Assembly (NCBI GenBank): GCA_951406725.2
Contig: OX597821.1
Location: 65,658,001-65,722,000, forward strand
Reading direction: 5' to 3'
From: Octopus vulgaris
Taxonomy: Eukaryota
Length of the DNA stretch: 64,000 bases
Part shown: positions 44,707 through 45,368 of the stretch, piece by piece
How the letters are laid out: every line of letters starts with the position of its first letter
Numbering within the stretch: position 1 is the first letter of the stretch
Program-made: the position numbers and the translations under genes
Notes under the pieces: generated by a model
What the model was told of the DNA's origin: nothing
Database searches by the model: none
Seen by the model: the letters and a program-made list of their open reading frames with translations, nothing else

Positions 44707-45368
44707 TGTTTAGAAGAAAAAGAAGCGGAGACAAGATTGACCTGCCCGGAGTGTTGGTGGAGTTTGACGAACTGCCACCCGTAGTTGAATTCAGACTTGG
44801 AGCCTTTCATGAAGTATTAAAATGGAAAAAAAAAAGAGTAAGTAAAATTGCTCTGTTGAAAGAAAAAAAAGAAAAAGTAAAAGAGTTTCATGTAACAAAA
44901 AAGAGAAAAAGAAGATGATTAAGAAAAAACAGTAGAAAAATAGAACGATTGTAAATAGTGTGTATAAACGTTCAAATGGTAATGCATGGGGGTGGGGCCC
45001 ATGTGGCCATTTCCTTTCATTTTTATATAACATCTCATTCTTATTCGTTTTATGTTCTCATTGTGGTGTTGTGTCTGTCCTTGTAGTGTACCCGGCGAGC
45101 TGGCAGAAACGTTAGCACGCCGGGCGAAATGCGTAGCCGTATTTCGTCTGCCGTTACGTTCTGAGTTCAAATTCCGCCGAGGTCGACTTTGCCTTTCATC
45201 CTTTCGGGGTCGATAAATTAAGTACCAGTTACGCACTGGGGTCAATGTAATCGACTTAATCCGTTTGTCTGTCCTTGTTTGTCCCCTCTGTGTTTAGCCC
45301 CTTGTGGGTAGTAAAGAAATATGTAGTGTACCCCTCTGTGTTGTGGCCGTAGTGCCAAATAAAGAAAT
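44707..45368 (+). mobile_element. 3' part of a putative ORF1-only retroelement (copy 1) with nested SINE A
   Basis: GDKIDLPGVLVEFDELPPVVEF aligns with copy 2; 3' end TGTCTGTCCTTGT..CCCTCTGTGTT..AATAAAGAAATA. Confidence 0.65.
45094..45321 (+). mobile_element. SINE A with 12-bp TSD
   Basis: TGTAGTGTACCC at 45082-45093 and 45322-45333. Confidence 0.95.

What the first reader, a model, noticed from the sequence alone, without database searches (positions are those of the whole stretch)
45061..45368. The ORF1-only elements and SINE A share a 3' tail
Seen: SINE A tail TGTCTGTCCTTGTTTGTCCCCTCTGTGTTTAGCCCCTTGTGGGTAGTAAAGAAATA. Copy 1 tail with the insert removed TGTCTGTCCTTGTAGTGTACCCCTCTGTGTTGTGGCCGTAGTGCCAAATAAAGAAATA. 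Copy 2 tail TGTCTGTCCATGTCGTGTCCTTTCTATATATATAAGGCCTTATGCCTACAATAAAGAAA. Each has a short stem-loop (CCC..GGG or GGC..GCC) just before TAAAGAAA. Known: shared 3' ends mark SINE/LINE partners recognised by the same RT. Inference: a three-member system of an unseen autonomous LINE, an ORF1-only element and a tRNA-SINE.
Basis: partly seen in the sequence, partly recalled or inferred. Interest (0 to 1): 0.7.

Follow-up and report, generated by a model that had tools for sequence, protein, structure and literature searches.

The report
Octopus half-LINEs share a SINE's tail
In this stretch of a likely octopus genome, two decayed jumping genes with a predicted RNA-packaging protein gene but no copying enzyme end in the same 55-base tail as a very common short repeat, so all three likely borrow the enzyme of a full-length element that I could not see.

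Summary
Observation confirmed. A 228-bp SINE (45094-45321, 12-bp TSD) interrupts the tail of a truncated ORF1 element (copy 1). Copy 2 (45388-47571, 18-bp TSD) follows head to tail: 1,510 bp without inserts, one broken ORF of type I ORF1 build (two predicted RRM-like domains plus CCHC), no RT. SINE tail versus copy 1: 46 of 58 columns, 0 of 5000 shuffles as high; versus copy 2: 41 of 61, 2 of 5000. Public contigs show the uninterrupted tail in 13 of 105 laid contigs in each of two runs. The 4-bp stem is not stable by energy, but two pairs switch C-G to G-C across families. New here: a third tail-bearing remnant (35539-35790) with the SINE's own stem type, and a sister SINE with the same head but another tail with the same hairpin. 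The autonomous partner was not seen: no genome is held and no RT piece in the window has this tail. An L1/Tx1-type partner is inferred; unchecked earlier scan notes report one. ORF1-only LINEs and shared tails are each known; the three-way, poly(A)-free L1/Tx1-type case in an animal was not found in my searches.

The parts
44703..45369 (+). Copy 1: 3' remnant of an ORF1-only element (ORF1 C-terminal codons, 3' UTR, tail), interrupted by SINE A; its 5' part is absent and an RTE-like 3' fragment (name recalled) abuts it
   Evidence: C-terminal-domain profile built from database homologues hits 44724-44795, E 1.3e-5 among 2054 pieces; UTR homologous to copy 2
45082..45093 (+). Left TSD of SINE A (12 bp), part of the copy 1 tail
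   Evidence: identical to 45322-45333
45094..45321 (+). SINE A (head, core, 65-nt tail 45257-45321; hairpin 45297-45309)
   Evidence: very high summed contig depth
45322..45333 (+). Right TSD of SINE A
45334..45369 (+). Right half of the copy 1 tail; hairpin 45344-45357 with 6-nt loop, then AATAAAGAAATA
   Evidence: many related contigs
45370..45387 (+). Left TSD of copy 2 (18 bp); also the exact site at which copy 1 ends
   Evidence: identical to 47572-47589; only these 2 exact matches in the window
45388..47571 (+). Copy 2: complete ORF1-only element, 1,510 bp without inserts; one broken ORF (frameshifts, stops, MITE) ending at TAA 47120-47122; 196-nt 3' UTR; hairpin 47546-47558
   Evidence: related contigs start aligning at 45387 with other letters before it
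45961..46373 (.). MITE with terminal inverted repeats and 8-bp TSD (ATCCTCTA) inside the copy 2 ORF
47250..47487 (+). Second SINE A (47257-47487 plus 7 extra 5' bases) in the copy 2 3' UTR; 15-bp TSD 47235-47249 / 47488-47502
47572..47589 (+). Right TSD of copy 2; the flank beyond it is unidentified and near single-copy depth
35539..35790 (-). Copy 3: 5'-truncated relative in an AAT microsatellite, same tail with the CCC/GGG stem of SINE A, no SINE head or core; its upstream reading frame was not assignable
49713..49765 (+). Example of the SINE B tail: same head and core as SINE A, different tail with a GGC/GCC hairpin like copy 2
   Evidence: (6 of 5000 shuffles vs copy 2)

Best explanation
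The SINE and two ORF1-only elements end in a homologous 55-60 nt poly(A)-free tail that likely serves as the handle by which the reverse transcriptase of an unseen, likely L1/Tx1-type LINE recognises and copies their RNAs. Shown: tail homology, TSD-bounded insertions, an ORF1-only build, a covarying 4-bp stem with a C-U/G/A-rich 5-6 nt loop. Inferred: the ORF1-only elements arose from such a LINE by loss of ORF2, keeping ORF1 and the 3' UTR; the SINE core picked up the last 65 nt of one lineage by template switch (tail A) and the end of another lineage separately (tail B); ORF2 supplied in trans nicks the target, binds the hairpin and primes reverse transcription, leaving 12-18 bp TSDs; the TSD rebuilds the site so that a second element can land at the same base. 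The copies here are dead.
For: Tail alignments beat shuffles. Uninterrupted tail in 13 of 105 contigs in each of two runs; summed depth over the tail about 8,950 and 5,100 against about 76 and 64 for contigs matching this locus, so many relatives exist (depth is not a copy count). Stem: 87.5% of 48 cells paired, 2 of 4 pairs changed on both sides, covariation 0.58 against at most 0.23 for slid controls, 0 of 500 shuffles. UTRs of copies 1, 2, 3 are homologous upstream of the tail (0, 0 and 3 of 2000 base shuffles) and unlike the SINE head or core (568, 1862, 1979 of 2000). SINE A and B share head and core and part after AATCGACT, so the tail is the acquired module. ORF: 113 hits at E<=0.001, a few of them unrelated knuckle repeats; of 20 looked up, 17 are named octopod proteins and 3 unnamed. 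The model of homologue P0041 (pLDDT about 90 over residues 40-220) matches tandem-RRM proteins (Foldseek best E 1.8e-4); Atlas structure neighbours of P0040 include DUF4283 and RBD_ZCCHC3 clusters. RRM plus CCHC is type I ORF1, seen in Tx1 and plant L1 (PMC5203782, passages). L1-Tx1 has 80 families in O. vulgaris (PMC13282606 supplement).
Against: No autonomous element with this tail was seen by me. Type I ORF1 also occurs in I, Jockey, R1, Tad1, L2 and CR1 (PMC4120745, passages), so the clade is not fixed by ORF1. The hairpin has no energy signal. The covariation rests on 12 related sequences and about two stem types, with the structure picked by eye; copy 1 is out of register by one base in that alignment. 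VIA-align ranks ACT/ferredoxin-like folds as high as RRMs (best Z 8.2, rmsd 2.4, 79 aligned), so RRM identity is predicted only. 3' flanks of relatives in public contigs are heterogeneous (agreement 0.45-0.56), which does not show one fixed target for this subfamily.
Confidence: 0.72

Rival explanations
1. Same shared-tail system, but the partner LINE belongs to another clade with a type I ORF1 (I/Nimb, L2, CR1, Jockey group), where stringent tail recognition is ordinary.
For: Type I ORF1 is spread over many clades (PMC4120745, passages); CR1 and L2 are tail donors for mollusc SINEs (PMC4824008, passages); no ORF2 was available to place on a tree.
Against: One CCHC knuckle rather than three; DUF4283 and RBD_ZCCHC3 neighbours; no tandem-repeat 3' end on tail A; stacking at one base and 12-18 bp TSDs fit Tx1 behaviour (PMC4494074, passages). 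Unchecked earlier notes report Tx1 ORF2 with this tail (leads only).
Confidence: 0.13
2. The tails share ancestry but recognition is relaxed: the enzyme needs only the terminal A-rich bases, and the shared sequence is a passive relic or serves 3' end formation (it contains AATAAA in copies 1-3).
For: [quoted passage not shown] Weak folding energy. SINE B keeps only the hairpin region.
Against: No poly(A) after any tail; compensatory stem changes; SINE A usually lacks AATAAA (GTAAAG in 5 of 8 A tails) yet is amplified.
Confidence: 0.1
3. The ORF1 elements captured their 3' end from the SINE (or the likeness is a by-product of the SINE landing there), so the direction is the reverse or there is no common donor.
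For: The SINE is vastly more abundant and sits inside both tails.
Against: No SINE head or core upstream of the tails; UTR homology among ORF elements extends about 130 nt further; uninterrupted tails elsewhere; the SINE core carries two alternative tails.
Confidence: 0.05

Closest known systems
ORF1-present non-autonomous LINEs: HAL1 (L1), HeT-A (Jockey), Ag-Sponge (CR1) (PMC5786205 and PMC5753468, passages; primary papers not read)
   Same: One ORF1 protein, no RT, 5' and 3' ends of a LINE-like element, presumed mobilised in trans.
   Different: Type I ORF1 (RRM-like pair plus one CCHC) with its own C-terminal domain, octopod host, no poly(A), and a tail shared with a SINE.
Stringent L1-clade SINE/LINE pairs: maize/sorghum LINE1-1_ZM group with ZmSINE2/3, Chlamydomonas L1-1_CR with SINEX-3_CR (PMC3747384, passages)
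   Same: About 45-80 shared terminal bases with a hairpin showing compensatory changes.
   Different: Those are plants and an alga (the algal pair ends in poly(A)); here an animal, no poly(A), and an ORF1-only third member. The LINE side is unseen here.
SINEU with Tx1-Mar in crocodilians (PMC4494074, passages)
   Same: A SINE inferred to ride on Tx1; tandem insertion at shared sites.
   Different: SINEU has poly(A) and no LINE sharing its 3' part was found; the link there is the target, here it is the tail.
Octopus SINEs OR1/OR2/OK and the tRNA-Deu class (PMC4824008, PMC4758252, PMC8967140 passages; Ohshima and Okada 1994 not read)
   Same: Very abundant octopus SINE with box-like head motifs.
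   Different: I could not compare sequences, so which named family SINE A is remains open; no partner LINE for it appeared in the passages read.

Membership tests
ORF1-present non-autonomous LINE | Encodes an ORF1-type protein | tested here: met
   CCHC knuckle in sequence and in homologues; tandem RRM-like model; predicted only
ORF1-present non-autonomous LINE | No RT or endonuclease between 5' end and tail | tested here: met
   copy 2 is 1,510 bp without inserts, 196 nt from stop to end
ORF1-present non-autonomous LINE | Dispersed multi-copy retroposon with TSD | tested here: met
   18-bp TSD; related contigs over the ORF and both ends
ORF1-present non-autonomous LINE | Ends shared with an autonomous LINE | not testable with these tools
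   no genome held; only unchecked earlier notes
HAL1 proper | Derived from mammalian L1 with type II ORF1 (Transposase_22) | tested here: not met
   octopod homologues; CCHC-bearing type I build, no Transposase_22 hit in 27 homologues scanned
Tx1 clade | RT phylogeny within L1/Tx1 | not testable with these tools
   no ORF2 linked to this tail was obtained; searches for fused longer proteins missed known positives and are uninformative
Tx1 clade | Type I ORF1 (RRM plus CCHC) | tested here: met
   not exclusive to Tx1 (PMC4120745)
Tx1 clade | Target-site preference | tested here: inconclusive
   two diverged copies end at one base, but relatives' 3' flanks are mixed; contigs that break at repeats would hide a high-copy target
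tRNA-derived SINE | tRNA-related head with A and B boxes | tested here: inconclusive
   ARAGORN 0 genes; Rfam no tRNA match; box-like motifs judged against recalled consensus
tRNA-derived SINE | Short, non-coding, high copy, TSD-flanked | tested here: met
   228-231 bp; TSDs 12 and 15 bp; over 300,000 contigs laid per run on a stretch dominated by it
Stringent SINE/LINE pair | Conserved 3' stem-loop with compensatory changes | tested here: met
   few independent events
Stringent SINE/LINE pair | Tail required for mobilisation by the partner RT | not testable with these tools
   needs a retrotransposition assay

The most novel reading that the evidence does not exclude
A whole octopod Tx1 radiation uses a poly(A)-free hairpin handle that has been captured twice by one SINE core and kept by many ORF1-only passengers, and the tail region is also a preferred landing site, so members nest into each other's tails (2 of 2 near-intact ORF1 tails here carry a SINE A within 84 nt of the 3' end), possibly aided by RNA-DNA pairing between tail and target.
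Probability: 0.15. Interest if true: 0.7.

Novelty: new variant of a known kind. Interest (0 to 1): 0.4.

Why it matters
It would name the likely engine of one of the dominant octopus SINEs (SINEs are 11.6% of O. vulgaris, PMC13282606) and give an animal example of stringent, poly(A)-independent RNA recognition in the L1/Tx1 group, where such pairs were reported as rare (PMC3747384). Natural stem variants (CCC/GGG, GGC/GCC, 5 or 6 nt loop) make the recognition rule directly testable. Each ingredient has precedent, so this is a new combination rather than a new mechanism.

Tried and rejected
No genome held. Tail-pattern scans of metagenome and viral contigs: 0 matches each; these collections hardly cover animals. 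Searches for longer ORF1-ORF2 fused proteins: none among 557 and 7991 candidates; one search missed known relatives in its length range, so the blank says nothing. Run X22 gave only 161 mostly distant reads and was disregarded; no RNA holder listed. One search used a structure string shifted by one column (29% paired) and was corrected. The first tail join was off by one base and was corrected. First structure model (fragmentary alignment) gave no Foldseek match at E<=0.001. My guess that copy 3's upstream frame is an ORF1 C-terminus failed (1.2 bits). Tail-to-landing-site likeness was tested for 10 insertions against 4000 random window 22-mers: only the SINE-in-copy-1 site stood out (15 of 4000, expected from homology); copies 1 and 2 scored 203 and 180 of 4000; the other 7 were at background; not support for RNA-guided aiming. 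An LTR reading was rejected: the 18-bp repeat is identical while the tails differ by about 30%, and related contigs start at 45387 with other flanks. RLE-type LINE pieces (clade name recalled) end in other UTRs plus TAA repeats. PDB sequence search found only knuckle matches. Literature searches found no description of this system; Repbase, Dfam, SINEBase and subscription papers were not searchable, the O. vulgaris supplement held is a summary table without sequences, and one MetaSINE supplement file was not searchable, so prior description there cannot be excluded.

Full report
Setting. The window is microsatellite-rich animal DNA. No whole genome is held. Of 20 ORF homologues looked up, 17 carry octopod names (O. 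bimaculoides, O. sinensis, O. vulgaris, Argonauta hians) and 3 are unnamed, so the host is likely an octopus.

Anatomy. SINE A occupies 45094-45321 between two copies of a 12-bp TSD. Removing it restores the tail of copy 1, which ends at 45369. An 18-bp sequence follows (45370-45387) and recurs exactly at 47572-47589; these are its only exact matches in the window. Between them lies copy 2 (45388-47571). It holds a MITE with an 8-bp TSD (45961-46373) and a second SINE A with a 15-bp TSD in its 3' UTR. Without inserts it is 1,510 bp, with one broken ORF and 196 nt from stop to end. Copy 1 keeps only about 25 homologous C-terminal codons (E 1.3e-5) plus UTR. In neither is there room for ORF2 between ORF1 and tail.

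Is the tail likeness real? SINE vs copy 1: 46 of 58 columns, 0 of 5000 shuffles as high; SINE vs copy 2: 41 of 61, 2 of 5000; copy 1 vs copy 2: 45 of 63, 0 of 5000. Laying public contigs on 45308-45620, 13 of 105 contigs in each of two runs carry the right half of the tail preceded by the expected left half with no SINE. Summed depth over that half is roughly a hundred times that of contigs matching this locus, far above the 5' end of copy 2, so the tail is shared by more elements than this subfamily; depth is not a copy count. The same call places related 5' ends at 45387, confirming the TSD reading.

Whose tail is it? The UTRs of copies 1 and 2 are homologous well upstream of the tail and show no SINE head or core (base shuffles, which may overstate significance given the composition gradient). 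The SINE core occurs with two different tails, A and B, parting after AATCGACT. A third remnant at 35539-35790 (minus) has the tail and UTR homology but no SINE core; its upstream frame could not be assigned. The simplest order is that the SINE acquired tails from LINE-type elements.

The hairpin. Folding energy is unremarkable in 6 of 6 tails. On 14 aligned tails (12 distinct) the 4-bp stem has 87.5% of cells paired, two pairs switch C-G to G-C, and the covariation score is 0.58 against at most 0.23 when slid (one search was my one-column error). SINE A and copy 3 have CCC/GGG; copies 1, 2 and SINE B have GGC/GCC. The rows are related and the structure was chosen by eye, so this is a few events, not many. 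It suggests that SINE A's donor is nearer copy 3 than copies 1 and 2 (35 of 43 columns).

The protein. A 128-aa unbroken piece found 113 representatives at E<=0.001, a few being unrelated knuckle repeats. A model of homologue P0041 is confident over residues 40-220 and matches tandem-RRM proteins (6 matches at E<=0.001), though a second aligner ranks ACT-like folds equally. Atlas neighbours include DUF4283 and RBD_ZCCHC3 clusters. RRM plus CCHC is type I ORF1, found in Tx1 and plant L1 (PMC5203782, passages) but also other clades (PMC4120745, passages).

The partner. I did not see it. Seven LINE pieces in the window score at background against the tail in the flanks examined; two RLE-type pieces end in other UTRs with TAA repeats. 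Collection scans and fused-protein searches were blank and uninformative. L1-Tx1 is present in O. vulgaris with 80 families, 13 recently active (PMC13282606, part 1 of 3 and supplement table). Earlier unchecked notes on this genome report an intact Tx1 LINE with the same tail; these are leads, not support, and I could not test them.

Targeting. Two diverged elements end at the same base, which fits a site rebuilt by the TSD. Yet relatives' 3' flanks in public contigs are mixed (agreement 0.45-0.56), the flank here is near single-copy depth, and tail-to-site likeness is weak. Contigs break at high-copy repeats, so a SINE-head target could be hidden. Both SINE A copies in the cluster lie 48 and 84 nt from the 3' ends of ORF1 elements; a post hoc chance estimate is 0.0002-0.001 for 7-16 SINE insertions. 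All 4 tandem SINE junctions in the window join tail A to head base 48, and this joint is common in contigs.

Mechanism. Shown: homology, TSDs, ORF1-only build, stem covariation, tail swap. Inferred: loss of ORF2 from an L1/Tx1-type LINE, template-switch capture of the tail by the SINE, recognition of the hairpin by ORF2 in trans, target-primed reverse transcription. Confidence 0.72.

Known or new. ORF1-only LINEs (HAL1, HeT-A, Ag-Sponge; PMC5786205, PMC5753468, passages) and shared SINE/LINE tails are established. L1-clade tails on SINEs were reported for only 3 SINEs, with examples in plants and an alga (PMC3747384, passages); crocodilian SINEU is tied to Tx1 by target, not tail (PMC4494074, passages). 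I also read passages of PMC4758252, PMC5804259, PMC4824008, PMC9115989, PMC10294476 and PMC8967140; none describes this system. Nine searches found no description, but repeat databases and subscription papers were out of reach. Verdict: real feature, new variant of a known kind, interest 0.4.

Noticed in passing
window 16688/16689, 16859/16860, 49409/49410, 49593/49594: All 4 tandem SINE junctions join the end of tail A to head base 48 (GGTATTTC); upstream units have tail A and the last has tail B. The standalone copies at 4455, 10794, 45094 and 47257 have C instead of G at that base. The same joint is frequent in public contigs. Fits insertion of the SINE into its own head.
   Followed up: partly
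window 45082-45093 and 47235-47249: Both SINE A copies in the cluster landed in 3' UTRs of tail-sharing ORF1 elements, and both TSDs contain TGTACCC.
   Followed up: partly
window 35539-35790 (-): Third tail-bearing remnant in an AAT microsatellite with the SINE A stem type; a short open frame upstream matches nothing tested.
   Followed up: partly
window 45961-46373: High-copy MITE with about 30-bp terminal inverted repeats and 8-bp TSD (hAT-like by recalled rule) inside the ORF.
   Followed up: no
protein P0010 (O. bimaculoides prediction): A predicted protein joins a copy-1-like C-terminus to a copy-2-like ORF, suggesting the same tandem order elsewhere or at the orthologous locus.
   Followed up: no
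window 47250-47256 and the 5' flanks of copies at 10794 and 49183: Several SINE copies have 3-8 extra bases, often ending in AA, between the left TSD and the head.
   Followed up: no
window 4447-5868, 13953-14309, 24393-24833, 29939-30851, 36890-37276, 63007-63555; 21759-22193; 34315-34827: Fragments of other LINEs (RVT_1 hits in three), a mariner transposase piece (HTH_48) and a DUF7041 piece.
   Followed up: partly
window 47590-47850: The flank beyond the stack is unidentified and near single-copy depth; it is not a SINE head.
   Followed up: partly
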